This document shows, in pieces, positions 42,801 to 60,007 of a DNA stretch of 64,000 bases (within the stretch, counting starts at the first letter, position 1; each line of letters opens with the position of its first letter). The position numbers and the translations under genes are program-made. The stretch is from NCBI GenBank assembly GCA_973895155.1, contig OZ316894.1, positions 18,072,563 through 18,136,562 on the forward strand, given 5' to 3'. Source of the DNA: Marsupella aquatica (taxonomy: Eukaryota > Plantae > Marchantiophyta). A model generated the notes under the pieces. The model saw nothing but the letters and a program-made list of their open reading frames with translations, was not told the origin of the DNA and ran no database searches.

Positions 42801-43493
42801 GCCTTCAGAGTTATGCACGCGGCACCACCGTTTCACACGGACGGAAAGGAAAATTTTTGGGCATCGTTTCGCAGCAGACCATGATCGTCATCTGTACAGC
42901 CTGGCTAGCAATTTGGAGGGGAGCGTTCTCCTCCTTTTTTCGTAGAGGAGACATCAATCACCCGCTATTTTAAGCCCAGTAAATCCCTGGATTTCAGGCA
43001 TCGTGGAGGTAATATATCTCCTCCGAGGATTTCAATTACATTCCTCCCGGGAAACGCGTCCACTCAGGGTCTGGATGTATACTCTCGACAGCCGCAATTT
43101 CTTGGTCAGACTCATAAAGTGTTCCCCCAGCATTGTTTAGTATCGTTCCTCTTGCCCTCCGTGACACTACTCTTTCGTACCTTCGATTCGTGTTCGTGTA
43201 TCCTGTCTATGTGGGATTGTGGGAGACTTGTGAGGACTCTGAGGCATGAGGATTCCATTCTAGACGCTTGGCGACCGAATATGAAAGACGAGTTCAATAG
43301 TTTTTTAAGCTAGAATCGAGACGGATTCAAATGAAAGGCGAAGTCTCAAAGATTGCTTTGAAGCCCCTCTCTCCATATTGGAAGAGTCGCTGATGTGTCC
43401 CACATTCTCTCTGTTGCAGTGAGCTGCCGAGATTGGTGCTTTTCAAGCTCTGCTATCATACATCCAGTGATTGAATCGTTGACTTTTCGGTCA

Positions 43494-43555
43494 TCTTGGC
43501 TTTGTCAAGGTCCAAATGTATTGTCTTGGCTCTGTCAAGGTCCAAATGTATTGTC
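43494..43555. repeat. 30-bp tandem duplication upstream of the LRR-RLK
   Basis: tcttggct(t/c)tgtcaaggtccaaatgtattg twice. Confidence 0.9.
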
Positions 43556-43849
43556 GCGCAAGTAAAGAATGACGCCGAGGTGTGGAGAAAAACACGGGAT
43601 ATAAGGGGCAGGGCGAATGAAAATGGATGAGGAATGATGGTTGAACCAAATCCGGACAGGATATTGGTTGGATGATGAAAAAATGCAGTAGATGACATTC
43701 GTCATTGAGTCGGTGACCAATGATACGCAAGCTCATCTCATATGGCAGCAGCACCAACAACAGCAGGAGCAGCAGCTGGATGAGGAGGAACAGCAATAGG
43801 CATTGCAGCAGAGGGAATGTAGAACTTGGAGGTCCTCCACTGCAGCATT

Positions 43850-46800
43850 ATGGTGCAGGAGGTGCCTCGGTTGGCAAGGTGTAACAACAGGGCGGTCATT
43901 CACTATTTCTTCATTCTCGAGGTCACCTTTCTTCTCGTCCTCAGCTCTTGTTGTTGCATTGCTGCATTCCCAAGAAGTGGTGTTGCACTTGTCGACAGTA
44001 GTATTTCTGAAAGAAGGCTTGTGGAGAGCACCCCGAACGAGTGGAGATATAGGGAGCATAACAGCTGGAGCCCGGACACCAGTGGACGATTCGGGAGGCA
44101 GATTAGAGGAGAAGAAGACCAGGCTGTATATGCTTGGCAGGCTAAGCAACAGGAGGAGGAGGCGGATGCAGTTCAGGAGGAGGAGTATGCTTTGTTCAGG
44201 TTTACAAAAGCTCAGGGTGGGGGAGAAAGAAGGGCATTGAAGTCCAACATAGACTGCAGCAACAAGTTCTTTAGTGGCCAGCAATGCGGGTCATCAGTTT
44301 CTGCAGGAGGAGCGTCAACCCTGAGAGTGTTGCGGGCAGCTGCAGTGATTTCGCCACCGGGTGCCAACTCAGAAGCTTTAGTTCTTTTAACTTGGAGGGC
44401 GAGTCTCATTGATGGGCCCAAACGTGTGCTTGCAAATTGGAACATCTCTGTGCAGCCCAACTTCTGTCGATGGCGAGGAGTGGCTTGCCGCACCGTTTTC
44501 CAACAGCGGCACGTGGTGTCGATCAATCTCGCCGGGAGCAAGATTTCAGGCTCCATCTCCCCTGCCCTCACGGGCCTACCGTTTCTCGCCACTCTCAACG
44601 TCTCCTACAACCGCCTTTCTGGGGCGATCCCGGCAGAGCTGGCGAGCATGTCGTCCCTCCAATTCGCTGACCTTCGCTTCAATCAGTTGACTGGCAGCAT
44701 TCCTGCCTTTGGCATCACTTCATCAAGTTTACAGTCACTGAACCTCATGAAAAACAAACTGTCAGGGATTGTCCCTTCGTCTCTGGGTCGTTGCAAACAA
44801 CTCACGTCGATCAATTTGGCTCATAATGTTTTGACCGGAGGCATTCCTGCGGAGTTCGGAGCGTTGACGAATTTGCAGGAGCTAATTTTGTCTCAGAATA
44901 GAATGGTCGGTGCTCTCCCTTCATCTCTTGGCAGTTGTGCTGCTCTCGTGAATATGAGCTTGGGGTGGAACGACTTCAACGGGAGCATACCAGGCGAGTA
45001 TTCCAATCTCAGAGCCCTGCAGGGCCTCTACTTAGAAAGCAATGAATTATCTGGAACTCTTCCAGCTTGGCTATCTGATCTTCCCAATCTCTCGGAGTTA
45101 TGGTTATATGATAATAGATTTCAAGGACAGATTCCGTCTCTATTGGGGAATGCCCAGCAATTGCGATCCCTGCTTCTCTCCAACAACAGTCTCGAGGGTG
45201 CCATTCCTGCGGCCTTAGTCAAAAGCCAGGGCCTATTCGAGATTGATTTGTCAGGGAATCAGCTCAACGGTTCAATTCCAGGCGATTTTGGCGTACTCAT
45301 CAAGTTGCAGCGCCTGCATCTGCAGCATAATCAACTCACGGGCACAATTCCGACGTCTATCGAGAACTGCGTGCTGCTCACAGAGCTGGACCTCTCACAT
45401 AACCAGCTGACTGGGCCTATTCCAAGTCTTGGCACTTTTCTCGTGCTGCAGACTCTTTCCCTGGATAGCAACAGGTTGAATGGCCCGATTCCAGGGTCCT
45501 TGATCAACTGTGTGAACCTCAATGTGCTAAATCTTTCCAGCAATGCTCTCACTGGATCTCTCCCAGGGAACGTCGGTCTACTGGTAAACCTGAACACTGT
45601 TGATCTTTCTGGAAACTCCTTGGGGGATCGTGTGCCAGCGCTCGGCGGTCTCGTTAGCCTCCAATCTCTGAATTTGGCCGACAACAGCTTCAATGGATCT
45701 ATCCCTAGCGACATCGGGCAATTGACCAAGCTGAGGAGTATAAATCTTTCCGGGAACTCGTTTGGGGGGCCTCTGCCGGATTTGAGCAGTCTCGTTAGCG
45801 TTCAGTACCTGAATTTGGAAAACAATACGCTTTCTGGGCCCATTCCTGCAGTCCTAGGAAATCTATTGCAGCTTCAGGTCCTAGCACTGGGAAACAACCA
45901 ATTCGTGGGTGAAATTCCATCCCAGCTCTCTCAGTTCTTTAATCTCTCGAATTTGACTCTCGAAAACAACCGCTTAAATGGCAGCATTCCGGACTCCCTA
46001 GGGGCGCTTCGGTCACTCACGGTGTTGCATCTTCAGGGAAACATGCTGTCCGGACCAATTCCGTCGAGCTTCAACAATTTCACTATGTTGCAAGATTTCG
46101 ACATCTCAAGGAACGAGCTCACTGGAGAAATCAGTGCAACTCTGCTTACTACCCTCTCCCACCTCCAAGGCGGTTTCTCCGTGGCAGACAATCGCCTGAT
46201 TGGTCCTGTGCCTAAGGAGTTGGGGCTGCTGCCGATGGTGCAAACGATTGACCTATCTGGGAATCACTTTTCTGACAGTATCCCTGATGAGATTGGCAAC
46301 TGCACAAATTTAGTGCGTCTCAGACTGGCGGAGAATAAGATAACGGGGATGATTCCAACGACCATAGGCCAGCTCTCTGCTTTGAAGGTATTGAATCTCT
46401 CTCATAACGGTCTCAATGGCTCTATACCAGCAGCTCCAGTAGGGGCCCTGAAGGAGCTTGTCGAGCTGGATCTCACGGCCAACCACTTATCTGGAGAGAT
46501 TCCATTGTCTCTCACATATTTGTCAAACCTTGCTTTCCTCAATGTGTCGTACAATGACTTGCAAGGGCCCGTTCCAGACACTGGTGCTCTCCGAAAATTT
46601 TCTGCCTCGTCATATTTGGGGAATCCTGGTCTTTGTGGGCCAATTGTGAACAGGCTTTGCATTGGCAGTAGCAGCCCCAGCCCCTCAACCCCAGCGAATG
46701 GGCAGAGTTCTCTGACGACGGCAGCGAAGGTGGGCATAGGTGTTGGTGTCGCTTGTACTGTTGCTCTGCTTGGAGCGGTTGGGTTTATCGTGTGGTGGTT

Positions 46801-47972
46801 GGCACCATTTGGGCGAACCGATCGGAAGAGGGGAAGTATCATACAGAGGAGCGAGCTTTTTTACCCGCAACTGAGGTTTACTGTTCAAGATTTGAAGCAC
46901 GCAACGGAGGACTTTTCGGACGTCAACCTTCTTGGTACAGGCTCGCTGAGCATGGTGTACAGAGGTGTTCTTCCTGAACTAGTACTCGTTGCTGTGAAGA
47001 AGCTAAAGGTACCTAATGGCAATTCAATCTCGCCTGAGTTCCTCCAAGAGCTGGATGAGCTGGGGAAATTGAGACACCGCCATCTGGTTGCCATCTTGGG
47101 CTACTGTTTCGAGACAGAGATGAACGCCCTCGTGGTCCAATTCATGTCCAATGGCAGCTTGGAGGAGCATCTCCACAAGGGGCCAACGTGTGATCTTGAT
47201 TGGCCAACTCGTGCTAACGTTGCCACAGGCGTCGCTAAAGGTTTGACTTACTTGCATCATGATTGCGGCACACCAATTGTGCATTGTGATTTGAAGCCTT
47301 CCAATGTCCTACTTGACCAGGAGTTCGAAGGTCACTTAGAAGACTTTGGACTCTCGAGATTGATATTTGCCCACAAGCTGATGGACATGACAGACTCGTC
47401 CGTGGGTAGCTCAATTGGCTACTTTCCTCCAGGTATCATCAAACGCTGTCCATTTGCTACCATCTGACTTAGTTTTTGTTTGCTTTGTCGTTTGTTTTGT
47501 CTGGCTTCCTGTGTTTCGTGGTTTGTTTTCAGGTAGCAAACAAAGCAACGAAAAACCTGGGTAGCGTGTTCCTAAATTCTCACCAAATTTTAGCTAGAAG
47601 TCTACGCTTGAGATGGCAGCAATCAAAGTACCATTCTGACATGCCGTTCGTCTTGTTCGTCTTTCAGAATACGCCATGTCCCCTACAGTTTCTCCAAAAG
47701 GAGATGTGTACAGTTTCGGAATTCTTTTATTGGAGTTGCTCACCGGCAAGAAGCCCACTCTTGACATGTTTAAGGACGGGACGTCTATAATAAGTTGGTG
47801 CCAAGCTTCATTCCCTAATAAGATTTTGGATGTCCTGGACCCAACTCTCGTTGGATCAAAGGAAACAAACCAGAAGCAGGCGACTCTCTTCATGAAAGTT
47901 GCTCTCATGTGCACCAACAATGCTCCAGAGGAGCGCCCTACGATGAAGATGGTCCTGGACATGCTGCGGTGA
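43850..47972 (+). CDS. LRR receptor-like kinase, non-RD, FLS2/LRR-XII-like; 2 exons (43850-47432, 47668-47972), ~1295 aa, ~29 LRRs
   Basis: Hydrophobic signal region, LRR N-cap (EALVLLTWRASL...FCRWRGVAC), ~29 plant LRRs, C-cap GNPGLCG, TM helix (VGIGVGVACTVALLGAVGFIVWWL), and kinase with GTGSLSMVYRG, VAVKK, HCDLKPSN (non-RD), DFG and GYFPP|EY. A GT-AG intron sits at 47433-47667, the usual kinase position. First in-frame ATG is at 43850. Confidence 0.95.
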
Positions 47973-50109
47973 GGGTTCCCGAAAGTTTTTTCTTGATTCT
48001 TTGGCCCGAAGCAATCCTTCTCTTCGAAGCATCTACTGGCACAGTGCTTGCACTCGGCAAGAGCTGGTGTGGGCTAGAGCTCCTTACGTATGCTGAGGGC
48101 AGTGCTTCGTTCTGGCAGTGGTGCTCATCAATCTGACACGAGCTGAAAAGTGAATTTCTGAACGTTATCTACCGCCAAATGCGAACCTCGATATGTGCTT
48201 GCCCTCTTCCAATTTTGCCACTGGATGACCTAGTTTTTCGCTGAGCATGGCTGAAGGGACCTCATCATTTTGAAATGGTTCACTAAATCCGTCATGCTAC
48301 GCAACGAATGCTATGAGAGAGAGTTCAGACTTACCGAAACCTTCATTGTATTTGTAGCGTTGAGATTTATGTTTGTTATCACGATTTGCCTCCATTGTAA
48401 TGGAGGGTGAGATTTGATAGTGTTTTCGAGCTCATTGTTCTGCAGGAAATATTCTCTCCGAAAAAGAGCAGTAGCATCAATTTGTAAAATTAGATTTGTA
48501 ACTACGATAGGCAATCTCGCCTCCTAAATTGTGGAGGATACAGAAATTTGAAACAGTTTGAAGGTCAAGTGAGTTTTCCGTAATCTGCAAAAGGATCCAC
48601 CGAGGACAACAGATTCTATTCTTTGTATAGTGGGCTACCCCAGCTCTTGGCCATATAGCGGACAAAGCTATGACACAGAGAAGAAATCACGGGAAACAGA
48701 GAGGGGAAAGAGAGAGGAGGTAACCAAGCTTGCCGTCCAGTTGTGTATAGCTGGGGGTATTCATGATTGAAACCATAACCAGATGGTGATACTGTTTTGA
48801 AAAGAAAAGAAAAGTAGGAATTGTCTCGCAACTGTTCAGTCTGTATTGTCATGGATGGTCCACATATTGTATTTCTATATCTGATTTTTTGGGGTCTCAG
48901 ACTATTGTAGTAGTTTGGACCGCAAACTTTTAAACTGTAATACTTTGCTGTCATCTCAAAGACGAGTCTAAAAGTTGGTGAATACATTCCTGCGTAATCA
49001 ATCACCTCAGTTTGTTTTCCAAGAAAGAAATTCTTTCTGTCCACTTTAATTGATATTAAGCCCTGTTAACCTCTTCATCTGCATTGTGTCGCGTACTCTC
49101 TAGACTTTCCCGACCTGCAAACAAAAGAGGAGTGCTATGTCGTCGAGGTTCCATCACTGAGTGATAATCTTCGTTTGTTCGCATCAGTTCCTTCTACTGG
49201 TAATCTGTAGGCCATTCTATGGACTTTTTGAAGCATGGTAATTCTGAAAACCATGAAGGACGCGGGCATTTTCATGAGATTGTCATGAGATTTCATTTTA
49301 AAAGAAAGAGTATTTAGATGGAATTGGATTCTTGTTATCCTATTGGGAACGCATCTTCCCCGATTATCTGTCAAAGGCATGGAGTACTAGACACTAGTGT
49401 CGACTTTCAAGTTGAAGCTCCAATTAACCACCCCCAAAACTCTTATGGCTGAACACACGCCCAAATTTAGAGGCTTGACTTTCAATCTACAATTCGGTAC
49501 TCAGTGCTCTCCCACTCCCCCGATTGAAGTAGACTGCGTTAACTCTTTTGAGCGAGACCAATAAGACACGGACACAAAAAGATGATGGAAAGCTGGAGAA
49601 AAAGAAGAAGTTCGGAACTCCAGCTTTGAGAGACATGAACTTTATGTACGTGATCTCTTAGAAATTCCAATTGACATTATCAAACTACATCACTGAACCA
49701 AAAGAGCTTTTGGACCATCTGCCCTGCATGACTCAGTCATAGGTTTTTAGACAGCTCCAACAACAAAACTTGGGAAACTGGACACGATCAGAGGGAGCTG
49801 TTCAGAAAGAGTCTCCTGGGAAAAGTTGCTACATTCCATTTCGTGACAATTGACGAAATGGTTGTCTAGTGTGCAGAGCACTCCAGACATTCGACAATCT
49901 TTTCAAAAGGCCTCTGACTAGGCGGAAGTGACAACACACAACTTTGTAAGAATACTTCAAATGAGAAGATTGTTCCAGCGTACGGGAAAGTGCCCAAACA
50001 GCTCCCAATTGACCCAATTGCTAAAATTGTGTAAAGAATCTGGTGCCTTGTACTCTTACTGTACCTCGGAACGGGCCCTTAGTTGTGATTTGATAACTCA
50101 ATCAATGAA

Positions 50110-51308: not shown

Positions 51309-51533
51309 GTTCATGCCTGCGCCATAATCTGTTCAACTGTGGCTCATTTCAGCACCCTTCCTTGAGCCACACTGGCTTCAAGAGAAATTAGGATACTTTG
51401 GCTCCATACTATATTGGAACTTTCAATAATATGGATCCCCTAAGAATTGAACCTGGGACCACCCCCTTCAACAGAAATTCATATTCTTGGCTCCATACTA
51501 TGTTGCAACTTTCAATAACATGATAACATGGTT

Positions 51534-51600
51534 GGGCTTGGAATTGAACCTAGGACCCTCCCATGTACATGCTAGTGCTCTACCTGTGAGTTACTTGCCC
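51534..51600 (-). mobile_element. Second tRNA-derived SINE-like head; a partial B-box copy lies at ~51443-51460
   Basis: Reverse complement GGGCAAGTAACTCACAGGTAGAGCACTAGCATGTACATGGGAGGGTCCTAGGTTCAATTCCAAGCCC is similar to the 51228-51308 copy. Confidence 0.6.
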
Positions 51601-51627
51601 TTTGTGCTTGCACCATGTCTAGTTCGG

Positions 51628-51985
51628 GTGTGGTTCATTTCCAACCAGTTCAACAAGATTGGTTTGCTGCACTGCGGTTCATTTCCAACCCGTTCAACAA
51701 CTATGGTATGGTGCGCTGTGGTTCATTTCCAACCCGTTGCACAACTATGGTATGGTGCACTGTGGTTTATTTCCAAACCCGTTGTACAACTATGGTATGG
51801 TACACTGTGGTTCATTTCCAACCCTTACAACAACTAATGGTATGGTGCACTGTGGTTCATCTCCAACCAGTTCAACAACTATGGTATGGTGCACTATGGT
51901 TCATTTCCAACCTGTTCAACAACTATGGTATGGTGCACTGTGGTTCATTTCCAACCTGTGCAACAACTATGGTATGGTGCACTGG
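51628..51985. repeat. Minisatellite, ~44-bp unit x~8, directly upstream of RPL4
   Basis: Consensus aactatggtatggtgcactgtggttcatttccaacctgttcaac; ctatggtatgg at ~51701, 51745, 51790, 51879, 51923 and 51967. Confidence 0.95.
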
Positions 51986-52045
51986 TAGACTGTCGAGGAT
52001 TCGTCTCGCTGAATCGTTTGGAGTGGAATTGGAGAGGAAGCAGCT

Positions 52046-52969
52046 ATGGCGTCGTGCGTCGCGGCATCAGCATCAGCAGCAACAGCAGCAGCGATGTCAT
52101 GCGGACTTGCGGCATTGCAGAGCGCGCAGACGAGTGGAAGGAGCTTCAGTGGATTGAGGTTGGTGCGTCCATCCTCTCGTAGAAGCGCCTTAGAAAATGT
52201 GTCTTGCGTCAAACACAACAACAGCGGCGAAAGGAATGTGGGCGGTGTAGCGAGGGCACGAGTGACCGCTGTGCCGGTGGTCACATTCGATGGAACCAGT
52301 GCTGGAAGCGCGGAGATTAGCCTCAAAACAGCGCGCCCTGAGACTGCTGGAGCGGTGGTGCATCGAGGAGTGATTGCGGAGCTGCAGAACAGGAGGAGAG
52401 GAACTGCATCGACCTTGACGCGTTCTGAGGTGCGTGGAGGAGGGAGGAAGCCGTTCAAGCAGAAAGGAACGGGGCAGGCCAGACGGGGTTCGCAGAGAAC
52501 GCCTCTGAGGCCGGGAGGAGGAGTGGTGTTCGGGCCGAAGCCGGTGGATTGGAGAATTAAGATTAACAAGAAGGAGAAGCAGCTTTCGATCAGTACTGCC
52601 ATGCAGAGCGCCGCTGTCGACGCTTTGGTGGTGGAAGATCTGCAGGAGAAAATCACTACTCCCAAGACGAGTACTTTCATAGCTGCTCTCAAGCGGTGGG
52701 GTGTTGATCCCGCCCAGCACTCTCTTCTTTTTGCCACCGAGGTCTCCAAGGAGCTTGAGCTATCTGCTAGGAACATTAAAACTCTGAAGATTTTGACTCC
52801 TAGGTCTCTCAATCTGTACGACATTTTGAGAGCTGACAGGGTTTTGTTTACGAGGAGCGGTTTGCAGTATCTCAACGATACATACGGAGCTGCGAGTGGG
52901 GAGTTTTTGGCAGCAGAGGGTGACGGTGAGACTATCGACGTTGAGTCCAGTCAGTCTGCTACGGAGTAA
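52046..52969 (+). CDS. RPL4: Plastid 50S ribosomal protein L4 (uL4c) with transit peptide, 307 aa, intronless
   Basis: Ala/Ser-rich transit peptide, then RRGTASTLTRSEVRGGGRKPFKQKGTGQARRGSQRTPLRPGGGVVFGPKP, SARNI and LNLYDILRAD. Confidence 0.97.
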   Translation: MASCVAASASAATAAAMSCGLAALQSAQTSGRSFSGLRLVRPSSRRSALENVSCVKHNNSGERNVGGVARARVTAVPVVTFDGTSAGSAEISLKTARPETAGAVVHRGVIAELQNRRRGTASTLTRSEVRGGGRKPFKQKGTGQARRGSQRTPLRPGGGVVFGPKPVDWRIKINKKEKQLSISTAMQSAAVDALVVEDLQEKITTPKTSTFIAALKRWGVDPAQHSLLFATEVSKELELSARNIKTLKILTPRSLNLYDILRADRVLFTRSGLQYLNDTYGAASGEFLAAEGDGETIDVESSQSATE

Positions 52970-58406: not shown

Positions 58407-58570
58407 GGTCCACTAACTAATTGATATTCATGGGTTTAACTCGAGACATAACATGCCTACTGGTCCACTAACTAATTGATATTCATGGGTTTAACTCGAG
58501 ACATAACATGCCTACTGGTCCACTAATTAATTGATATTCATGGGTTTAACTCGAGACATAACATGCCTAC
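58407..58570. repeat. 55-bp tandem triplication that includes the PLATZ stop codon
   Basis: ggtccactaa(c/t)taattgatattcatgggtttaactcgagacataacatgcctac(t) starting at 58407, 58462 and 58517. Confidence 0.95.
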
Positions 58571-59323
58571 ACCAGCAGCGCGGACTGGTACGTTCTTCCT
58601 CGATCGCTTCCGAAAGCTGTGAGGTTCAGTCTGATAATCGCCGAGCGGCAGAACTGAAGTGGGCGACCCATCCGCAGCCGGTCGACTCGAACTGGGCCGC
58701 AGTTCATCATTCGTCTGAATGCAATCACCGGTCACAGGTCGCCGCTCTTCGGACGCCGAATTGTGCATGGCCGCTCCACCAGAATCGCAAGTCAGCGAAG
58801 CATCAGGAGCTTCAGGAACTTCAGAAGCATCAGGAGCTTCAGGAGCATCAGGAGGACTGTTAATGATCGCCTTGAGTTTACAAGACAGCGAGCAAAAGCG
58901 GCCCCATTCATCTCTGAGACCCCTGGTGCAGATTCTGCAGTGGCTCTTGATCGTCGGGGAGCGTTGCGGAAACTTCAGTTGAGGCCTGCTGGGAAGGAAC
59001 ACAATCAGGGATGAATTGATGGAGTAAGTCTGAATATGCTTGATGTCGAAGAGGTTGGTGATGTCGTTGACGCGAACTGCGTCTCTATGAGAAGCCTTCC
59101 GCACCTTGAGAACTTGGTGCTCCCCATGCTCGAGTCGCCTGCTTTGTAGACAAAGTGGACCCGTGGCACAGGTGATGCAGAAGTAGTCCTGGTCGCTCGT
59201 CTTCACGCGACTGTCATCCACAGTTTTCCTCTTACTGTACTGATGGATATGTTCGTGGCATTCTGTGAAGTACTTAGTCTCAACAAATCCAGGTAACCAT
59301 GTAGGTACTACAGATTGATCCAT
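58538..59323 (-). CDS. PLATZ zinc-dependent transcription factor, intronless and divergent, 261 aa
   Basis: PTWLPGFVETKYFTECHEH, FCITC, HGEHQVLKVRKASHRDAVRVNDI, IQTYSINSSLIVFLPSRP, CRICTRGLRDEWGRFCSLSCKL and C-terminal RKRSRKNVPVRA. Confidence 0.93.
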   Translation of the reverse strand: MDQSVVPTWLPGFVETKYFTECHEHIHQYSKRKTVDDSRVKTSDQDYFCITCATGPLCLQSRRLEHGEHQVLKVRKASHRDAVRVNDITNLFDIKHIQTYSINSSLIVFLPSRPQLKFPQRSPTIKSHCRICTRGLRDEWGRFCSLSCKLKAIINSPPDAPEAPDASEVPEAPDASLTCDSGGAAMHNSASEERRPVTGDCIQTNDELRPSSSRPAADGSPTSVLPLGDYQTEPHSFRKRSRKNVPVRAAGVGMLCLELNP

Positions 59324-60007
59324 GATGCAGTGATCATATCACACGCAAATAGCTCAAGTTCGTATTGCACTAGCTCATGGTCTCCAAATGAAACAATGAA
59401 ACAGTGCTCATGATCTCCAAATGCTGCATTTCATAGTCTCGAGGGTCCGCGAGGGACGAAGTTTTCGATCAAACGATCCATTCAATCGCGTGTGTGAGCA
59501 AGTAACAGATGTGGCAAATTACGAGAAGCCTTTTCCGCGATCAGCACGTTCTTACAATTCTAAAATGAAAGTGTCTTGATTTAGAACTGCCCATATCGCG
59601 TGAAAGGCTTAATTTAGGAGAGGAACATATTATTTGCGTCGTCGAGACATGGGCCTTGGAAATGAAACCGTCTCCCGTAATTCACGGAGGTTAGAAAAAA
59701 TGACTGAATTGCTCAGAGCCAGTAGCTGCAGTCCAATGGAGAACCAATTGGACTCGGACTCGTATGAAGAATCTGCAGCATGACGCCGAATCGAGTCCGT
59801 CCTGAAAACTTGCTTTCTTCGAATGTAATCAACCTGCCCACCACTCCGTCGAACCTCTACGGCGGACACACGTCGCGGCAATTGTTGTGTATTCTGGTTT
59901 GAACGTGAGGTAGATGTCATGAATTGTTTGCCTTGAAAACCGAAAGCAGACACAACTCTTACATCTAAGAGATTCTTAGATGATAGACGTACTACTTTGG
60001 AAATTTT

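What the first reader, a model, noticed from the sequence alone, without database searches (positions are those of the whole stretch)
43967..44371. Receptor kinase with a built-in peptide-precursor-like N-terminal domain (possible tethered ligand or pro-domain)
Seen: between the hydrophobic signal region (FFILEVTFLLVLSSCCCIAA) and the LRR N-cap (SEALVLLTW) there are ~135 in-frame residues. In order they contain ERRLV, an acidic run (QQEEEADAVQEEE), ERRALK (RRAL at 44228-44239), a Cys pair (CSNKFFSGQQC, 44255-44287) and RVLR just before the cap. Established: in typical LRR-RLKs the cap follows the signal peptide within a few residues. RRxL/RxLx is the SITE-1 PROTEASE/subtilase motif, and signal + acidic pro-region + RRxL + Cys-containing peptide is the layout of RALF-type precursors. 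Inference: the receptor may be made with its own cleavable peptide. That could be a self-ligand, an autoinhibitory cap or bait for a pathogen protease, analogous to protease-activated receptors. I know of no such plant RLK architecture.
Basis: partly seen in the sequence, partly recalled or inferred. Interest (0 to 1): 0.85.

Follow-up and report, generated by a model that had tools for sequence, protein, structure and literature searches.

The report
Plant receptor kinase with cleavable pro-segment
A FLS2-like receptor kinase gene, likely from a liverwort, encodes about 135 extra residues, predicted to be floppy, in front of its repeat domain, with a protease-site motif that its relatives keep; this is likely a pro-piece cut off during secretion rather than a built-in hormone.

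Summary
One reading frame (ATG 43850) runs from a signal peptide through 134 extra residues into the LRR cap of a 1,295-aa FLS2-like, non-RD receptor kinase. The segment is in other DNA runs and looks coding. It is kept in a close relative (P0001), in the Marchantia orthologue model and in a paralogue, with frame-keeping indels. RRxL at 44228 is the one motif cluster shared by all three full sequences, and RRAL is a proven SBT6.1/S1P site in CLEL6. The proposed peptide is less well supported: the Cys pair is complete in only 2 of 4 homologues, the stretch is 28% identical to P0001 against 63% for the LRRs, and 4 amino-acid-changing variants fall in it. RALF and CTNIP hallmarks are missing. Other LRR proteins also carry an extension with RRxL/RxLK before the cap but no Cys peptide after it. 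Best reading (0.5): a pro-receptor whose disordered pro-segment is likely removed by S1P in the Golgi. A tethered ligand stays possible (about 0.12). No cleavage or RNA data were available.

The parts
43850..43966 (+). Start codon and predicted signal peptide (aa 1-39); its end, LVLSS.C...AFPR, is shared with P0001 and the Marchantia model
   Evidence: Hydropathy up to 2.5 over aa 22-38; invariant columns. SignalP was not available.
43967..44368 (+). 134-aa extension between signal peptide and LRR cap, predicted disordered
   Evidence: No stop in frame, 4 and 7 stops in the other frames, T 20% against 37% in the gene's intron; pLDDT under 50 over aa 27-95 and 110-172; homologues
44228..44242 (+). 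RRALK, S1P/SBT6.1-type site (fits RxxL and RxLx); RRWLK in P0001, xRQLK in the paralogue, RRRLLL in Marchantia
   Evidence: site definition and the CLEL6 RRAL site from PMC13082318 and PMC7162652 passages
44255..44287 (+).
44324..44335 (+). RVLR; R-x-L kept in P0001 (RALR) and the paralogue (RALW), absent from the Marchantia model; may be a second site or a short helix
   Evidence: low-confidence helix aa 155-166
44369..44524 (+). LRR N-terminal cap (LRRNT_2)
   Evidence: Pfam PF08263 E 5.6e-08
44525..46639 (+). LRR solenoid, about 29 strands at a 23-26 residue period, no island domain
   Evidence: AlphaFold2 model, mean pLDDT 82; best PDB match FLS2 ectodomain 4mn8_A, TM 0.97 by target, rmsd 1.6, 38% identity
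46733..46801 (+). Predicted transmembrane helix (aa 962-984)
   Evidence: Sequence
46880..47432 (+). Kinase domain, exon 1, non-RD catalytic loop HCDLKPSN
   Evidence: Pfam Pkinase E 8e-26
47433..47667 (+). GT-AG intron in the kinase domain (inferred)
   Evidence: Only frame-keeping GT-AG join found in the ranges tested; P0001 is continuous across the same position
47668..47972 (+). Kinase domain, exon 2, to the stop codon (1,295 aa in all)

Best explanation
This is a FLS2-like, non-RD LRR receptor kinase that is likely made as a pro-receptor: a segment predicted to be disordered lies between signal peptide and LRR cap and is likely cut at its conserved RRxL(K) site by the Golgi subtilase S1P/SBT6.1. 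The cut would shed about 90 residues (aa 40 to 130/131) and leave a 30-45-residue stub that may be trimmed again at RVLR. By analogy with CLEL6 and pectin methylesterases, the likely purpose is passage through the secretory pathway or keeping the receptor quiet until it arrives. Shown here: architecture, coding behaviour, conservation of the site, variability of the rest. Inferred: translation, cleavage, the enzyme, the purpose, and an immune role.
For: RRxL is the only motif cluster invariant in the extension across window, P0001 and Marchantia P0003; the paralogue reads xRQLKS at the same place (hand-read). RRAL is an experimentally mapped SBT6.1 site in the variable pro-region of CLEL6, where blocking it reduced secretion (PMC7162652 passages; PMC13082318 table passage). 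PME prodomains are removed at RKxL/RRxL (PMC11494411 passage). The extension has pLDDT under 50 beside a well-folded solenoid, so the site would be reachable. Indels keep the frame: +6 and -6 nt in the paralogue, +12 nt in run X4. Three other LRR proteins carry a site just before the cap with no Cys peptide after it: L012 RRAL 19 aa before, P0075 RRLL 6 aa, P0096 RMLK 13 aa. L012 falls outside this gene's clade.
Against: No cleavage, protein or RNA data. Only four homologues, one a gappy gene model that lacks part of the cap and the TM helix and one read from 30-nt loose ends. RRxL arises in 4-16% of shuffles of each single extension. The three outside cases were picked by eye among 31 protein hits and 34 ORFs, and Marchantia Mp8g10060 has a 62-aa extension without RRxL or RxLK/RxLL. 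Residues 40-99 are 58% identical to P0001, close to the LRRs' 63%, more than a throw-away spacer needs. In the paralogue the best-kept DNA of the extension is the stretch after the site (44263-44309, 39 of 47 nt), which fits a working stub better than a discarded one.
Confidence: 0.5

Rival explanations
1. The extension is an uncleaved, disordered tail that stays on the mature receptor as a spacer or weak interaction arm; RRxL and RxL are kept for a structural reason, such as short helices that pack near the cap.
For: The model draws low-confidence helices at aa 131-139 and 155-166. Extension variants look neutral: 7 of 8 change the amino acid, P 0.45 under neutrality. Mp8g10060 has an extension with no such site.
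Against: The exact dibasic RRxL pattern, not just a helix, is what is invariant, and it recurs before other LRR caps.
Confidence: 0.24
2. Tethered ligand or autoinhibitory peptide: the cut at RRAL exposes a disulfide-looped stub that would sit in the receptor's own LRR groove and switch it on or hold it off.
For: RRxLKS and both Cys are kept in P0001. D/E-C-x-N follows the site in window, P0001 and Marchantia. The C-x9-C loop has the spacing of CTNIP4, a true LRR-kinase ligand (PMC13585564 passages). The paralogue's best-kept stretch lies after the site. None of the 12 variants hits RRALK, either Cys or RVLR.
Against: The first Cys is absent in the paralogue and Cys spacing differs in P0001 (8 against 9). 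Residues 133-158 are 28% identical to P0001 against 63% for the LRRs, and carry 4 amino-acid-changing and 0 silent variants. The CTNIP N-terminal anchor is missing. The outside cases have no peptide after the site.
Confidence: 0.12
3. Bait for microbial proteases: the exposed, variable tail would be cut by a pathogen enzyme and its loss would activate an immune receptor.
For: Immune-type receptor (non-RD kinase, FLS2-like fold) with a variable, disordered tail.
Against: The conserved site matches a host Golgi enzyme. The variant ratio does not exceed neutral expectation.
Confidence: 0.08
4. The segment is spliced out, or not translated, in the main transcript.
For: Frame-keeping GT-AG pairs exist on paper, for example 43998 to 44306. 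No transcript of this gene was read.
Against: Purine-rich, unlike the gene's own T-rich intron; an open frame of 134 codons has P about 0.001 at this composition. Frame-keeping indels. P0001, from a 5,465-nt Logan contig, is continuous across the kinase intron and still has the whole extension, which suggests a spliced transcript; the gene caller is not stated, so this is an inference.
Confidence: 0.06

Closest known systems
FLS2/EFR-type LRR receptor kinases (subfamily XII)
   Same: Signal peptide, LRRNT cap, long island-free solenoid (best PDB match FLS2, TM 0.97), one TM helix, non-RD kinase; the kinase groups with proteins named EFR- or At3g47570-like (98/95).
   Different: 134 residues between signal and cap. 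The gene forms its own clade with P0001 and Marchantia P0003 (100/100). FLS2 itself was not in the tree, and Marchantia is reported to have no apparent FLS2/EFR homologue (bioRxiv 10.1101/2022.12.28.521631 passage).
S1P/SBT6.1 substrates with variable pro-regions (CLEL6/GLV1, RALF23, pectin methylesterases)
   Same: Secretory protein with a variable pro-region and an RRxL site; RRAL is the very site cut in CLEL6.
   Different: Those are soluble peptides or enzymes. In the passages read, no receptor kinase is listed as such a substrate.
RALF precursors
   Same: Signal peptide, partly acidic region, RRxL, Cys downstream.
   Different: No YISY motif and two Cys, not four (hallmarks recalled, not from a call); no Pfam family on the N-terminal 180 aa; fused to a receptor.
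CTNIP/SCREW phytocytokines (ligands of HSL3)
   Same: C-x9-C loop starting C-S/T-N.
   Different: No L-xx-G-PVxPxG-like anchor before the first Cys (part 1 of 8 of the alignment seen); not a free small precursor; CTNIPs were reported from angiosperms.
Cleaved plant receptor ectodomains (SYMRK, CERK1) and animal pro-receptors (PARs, sortilin)
   Same: Proteolysis within the extracellular part changes the receptor (SYMRK and CERK1 from PMC11494411 passage; animal cases recalled).
   Different: SYMRK and CERK1 are cut inside folded domains, not at an RRxL in an N-terminal disordered segment; nothing here shows a PAR-like tethered agonist.

Membership tests
LRR-RK subfamily XII (FLS2/EFR-like) | Long LRR solenoid with LRRNT cap and no island, single TM helix | tested here: met
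LRR-RK subfamily XII (FLS2/EFR-like) | Non-RD kinase | tested here: met
   HCDLKPSN at 47282-47305
LRR-RK subfamily XII (FLS2/EFR-like) | Kinase falls inside the XII clade | tested here: inconclusive
   In a 27-row group (98/95) with EFR-/At3g47570-named proteins, branching outside the seed-plant ones; 51 rows, kinase exon 1 only, midpoint root, no FLS2 or EFR reference. By sequence the best PDB kinase match is BRI1, FLS2 lower.
LRR-RK subfamily XII (FLS2/EFR-like) | Cap follows the signal peptide closely | tested here: not met
   134 aa here; short in 23 of 24 and 31 of 34 controls. This is the variant trait.
LRR-RK subfamily XII (FLS2/EFR-like) | Senses a microbial ligand with a SERK co-receptor | not testable with these tools
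   Needs ligand and genetic assays
S1P/SBT6.1 substrate | RxxL/RxLx motif in a luminal, accessible region | tested here: met
   RRALK aa 127-131 in a region of pLDDT under 50; motif from PMC13082318
S1P/SBT6.1 substrate | Motif conserved in homologues | tested here: met
   RRxL in 3 of 3 full sequences; xRQLK in the paralogue, first residue not readable
S1P/SBT6.1 substrate | Cleavage that depends on the motif and the enzyme | not testable with these tools
   Bench test
RALF precursor | RRxL before the mature peptide | tested here: met
RALF precursor | YISY motif and four Cys (recalled); Pfam RALF match | tested here: not met
   No YISY, two Cys in the extension; 0 Pfam families at E up to 1
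CTNIP/SCREW peptide | Two Cys 9-11 apart, both required | tested here: inconclusive
   Met in the window; shorter in P0001; first Cys lost in the paralogue; one Cys in the Marchantia model
CTNIP/SCREW peptide | N-terminal anchor (Gln46/Arg47, GPV..SG) before the first Cys; free small precursor | tested here: not met
Protease-activated (tethered-ligand) receptor | Conserved new N-terminus after the cut (recalled) | tested here: inconclusive
   KS after RRxL in window, P0001 and paralogue, then divergent; 28% identity over aa 133-158
Protease-activated (tethered-ligand) receptor | Stub acts on its own receptor | not testable with these tools
   Needs binding or signalling assays

The most novel reading that the evidence does not exclude
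A plant protease-activated receptor: cutting at RRxL unmasks a tethered, CTNIP-shaped disulfide loop that docks in the receptor's own FLS2-like groove and switches it, with S1P-type pro-segments being a wider trait of early-branching XII-like receptors that seed plants lost.
Probability: 0.12. Interest if true: 0.9.

Novelty: new variant of a known kind. Interest (0 to 1): 0.5.

Why it matters
Plant receptor kinases are usually treated as mature once the signal peptide is removed. A receptor made with a pro-segment that S1P removes would add a Golgi checkpoint to receptor biogenesis. It would also matter for anyone expressing bryophyte XII-like ectodomains to look for their unknown ligands, because the pro-segment may have to be cut first. 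The Marchantia orthologue (OAE34022.1) makes the test direct in a model plant. Eight full-text searches listed no paper on such an architecture; I saw listings for most hits and passages of seven papers, and subscription journals are largely missing, so this does not prove it is unpublished.

Tried and rejected
No whole genome is held for this window. No RNA holder listed; all four runs laid are contigs of unrecorded library type, so they say nothing on expression. Complex prediction of aa 130-165 against aa 170-945 gave no answer (score 0.00 twice, alignment not used, controls not folded); this is no evidence either way. No free-standing relative of the extension was found: the three-sequence profile scored none of 7,996 candidates of 81-427 aa, and over 1.84 billion representatives only P0003, itself a seed, matched along the extension among 31 hits; one weak hit (P0094, E 9e-4) looked like low-complexity noise. 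Forms of 428-655 aa were not covered by the word-based searches. ESM Atlas: no usable hit for the window's extension; only LRR-cap clusters under 0.9 for the Marchantia one. PDB sequences match the cap only. The metagenome scan gave 80 loci, none above 40% identity, so no new orthologue; they served as controls. ERRLV as a site: rejected, not conserved. CTNIP membership: rejected; the one Marchantia row found in the relaxed alignment of PMC9191895 is not this gene, and the chr5 outgroup named in its text was not found there. Of its 35 supplementary files, 12 were searched, file 34 was searched alone and part 1 of 8 of file 18 was read. The one supplementary file of PMC8462819 held none of four motifs of this gene. 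Positive selection on the extension: not supported. L012 dropped out of the first tree because its kinase match was too short and was placed only in a quick tree of 20 rows, from which P0045, P0020 and P0057 were left out. Earlier scan notes: two unrelated bacterial LRR-lipoprotein notes by sequence, none by words or place. One search was one base off frame and was not used.

Full report
What is there. One open frame starts at ATG 43850 and runs to 47432; an inferred intron (47433-47667) and a second exon complete a 1,295-aa protein. Pfam finds an LRR cap, LRRs and a kinase, and nothing on the first 180 residues. AlphaFold2 on a 16-row alignment gives a confident solenoid of about 29 strands with no island, and pLDDT under 50 over most of the extension. 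The model's best match among solved structures is the FLS2 ectodomain (TM 0.97 by target, 38% identity). The kinase is non-RD. In a 51-row tree of kinase exon 1 it forms a 100/100 clade with P0001 and Marchantia polymorpha OAE34022.1 (P0003), inside a 98/95 group with EFR-like seed-plant proteins. The window is therefore probably from a liverwort; that is an inference from the closest named relative.

The observation. The 134-residue gap is unusual: 23 of 24 other LRR kinases and 31 of 34 distinct LRR ORFs have the cap right after the signal. In one search, 35 of 66 proteins had a cap match and 25 a clear hydrophobic core. In one search, 45 of 79 ORFs had a cap match, 35 were distinct and 34 had a core. 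The three long ones are L003 (an upstream-Met artefact), L039 (not a receptor-kinase-like N-terminus) and L012.

Is it coding? The DNA is confirmed by single contigs in runs X2 and X3. The segment has no stop in frame, 4 and 7 in the other frames, and 20% T against 37% in the gene's intron. A paralogue in runs X1, X2 and X4 keeps the layout with +6 nt and -6 nt differences, and run X4 has a 12-nt insertion. P0001 has the whole extension and is continuous across the kinase intron; it comes from a 5,465-nt Logan contig, which suggests a spliced transcript, but the gene caller is not stated. Frame-keeping splice pairs exist on paper with weaker acceptors than the true intron. Direct RNA proof is lacking.

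What is conserved. Against P0001: signal 61%, aa 40-99 58%, acidic run 23%, ERRALKS 6 of 7, aa 133-158 28%, cap 63%, LRRs 63%, kinase 82%. Across window, P0001 and P0003 the invariant extension residues are scattered except for FPR after the signal and R127-R128-x-L130. Read by hand from the loose ends, the paralogue has xRQLKSDEEDVK, so the site is kept and the first Cys is gone; its second Cys could not be read, and it has RALW where the window has RVLR. The Marchantia model has RRRLLL and one Cys, but it also lacks part of the cap, many LRRs and the TM helix, so its gaps are weak evidence. Of 12 variants in runs X1 and X4, 8 lie in the extension: 7 change the amino acid, 4 of them in aa 134-151, and none touches RRALK, either Cys or RVLR; the 3 in the cap are silent. 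The 7:1 ratio fits neutrality (P 0.45). Against my reading: the paralogue's best-kept DNA in the extension is 44263-44309, just after the site (39 of 47 nt), and aa 40-99 is well kept in P0001.

Beyond this clade. Three other LRR proteins show an extension with an S1P-type motif shortly before the cap: L012 (RRAL, 19 aa before; Cys pair upstream of the site), P0075 (RRLL, 6 aa) and P0096 (RMLK, 13 aa). L012 is a long branch in the wider XII-like group, outside this clade (quick tree). Marchantia Mp8g10060 has a 62-aa extension without such a motif. These cases were picked by eye and their organisms are not named, so 'recurrent in bryophytes' is a lead, not a result.

How it likely works. SBT6.1/S1P cuts RxxL/RxLx; RRAL is a mapped site in the variable pro-region of CLEL6, and masking it reduced secretion (PMC13082318 and PMC7162652, passages). 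PME prodomains are removed at RRxL-like sites (PMC11494411, passages). A conserved site in a disordered, otherwise variable segment fits that pattern. I put S1P-type removal of a pro-segment at 0.5, an uncleaved tail at 0.24, a tethered ligand or inhibitor at 0.12, protease bait at 0.08 and splicing-out at 0.06. Cleavage, enzyme and purpose are inferred.

Known systems. It works like an S1P-processed pro-protein and is built like an FLS2-type receptor. It is not a RALF (no YISY, two Cys; hallmarks recalled) and not a CTNIP, although the C-x9-C loop has CTNIP4's spacing (PMC13585564 and PMC9191895, passages and part of one supplement). Receptor cleavage is known for SYMRK and CERK1, inside folded domains. 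A review of open questions in plant proteolysis had no passage on this (PMC11371169, term search), nor did PMC8462819 (passages). Eight searches listed no paper on an RRxL pro-segment in a plant receptor kinase. Supplements of bioRxiv preprints could not be seen and might hold better Marchantia gene models.

Verdict. Real, conserved and directly testable in Marchantia; a new variant of a known receptor kind. The built-in-ligand story is possible but is not what the conservation favours. Interest 0.5.

Noticed in passing
window 43961-47756, runs X1, X2, X4: A paralogue at roughly 80% DNA identity (X2 contig of 6,415 nt) keeps the extension, has a 78-nt in-frame deletion of about one LRR near 45994-46209 and a shorter kinase intron.
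   Followed up: partly
window 44220-44330, runs X1 and X4: Both runs hold two versions of this stretch, differing at 4 sites that all change the amino acid; one change (44275) is shared with the paralogue.
   Followed up: partly
window 43400-43849: Sixteen upstream ATGs with short ORFs and a CAG-rich run near 43745-43795 precede the start codon; a 30-nt direct repeat lies at 43494-43553. May limit translation if inside the 5' UTR.
   Followed up: no
window 47942-48475: Just after the stop codon the summed contig depth rises several-fold in all four runs, suggesting a multi-copy element.
   Followed up: no
window 51451-51990: Tandem repeat-like region giving repetitive ORFs in several frames.
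   Followed up: no
window 52013-52969 (+): Intronless ORF that reads like plastid ribosomal protein L4 with a transit peptide (name recalled, not searched).
   Followed up: no
window 58538-59338 (-): Intronless ORF that reads like a PLATZ zinc-binding transcription factor (name recalled, not searched).
   Followed up: no
L012:883-1200: A separate LRR kinase with a 65-aa Ser-rich extension, a Cys pair and RRAL before its cap; same N-terminus in L013.
   Followed up: partly
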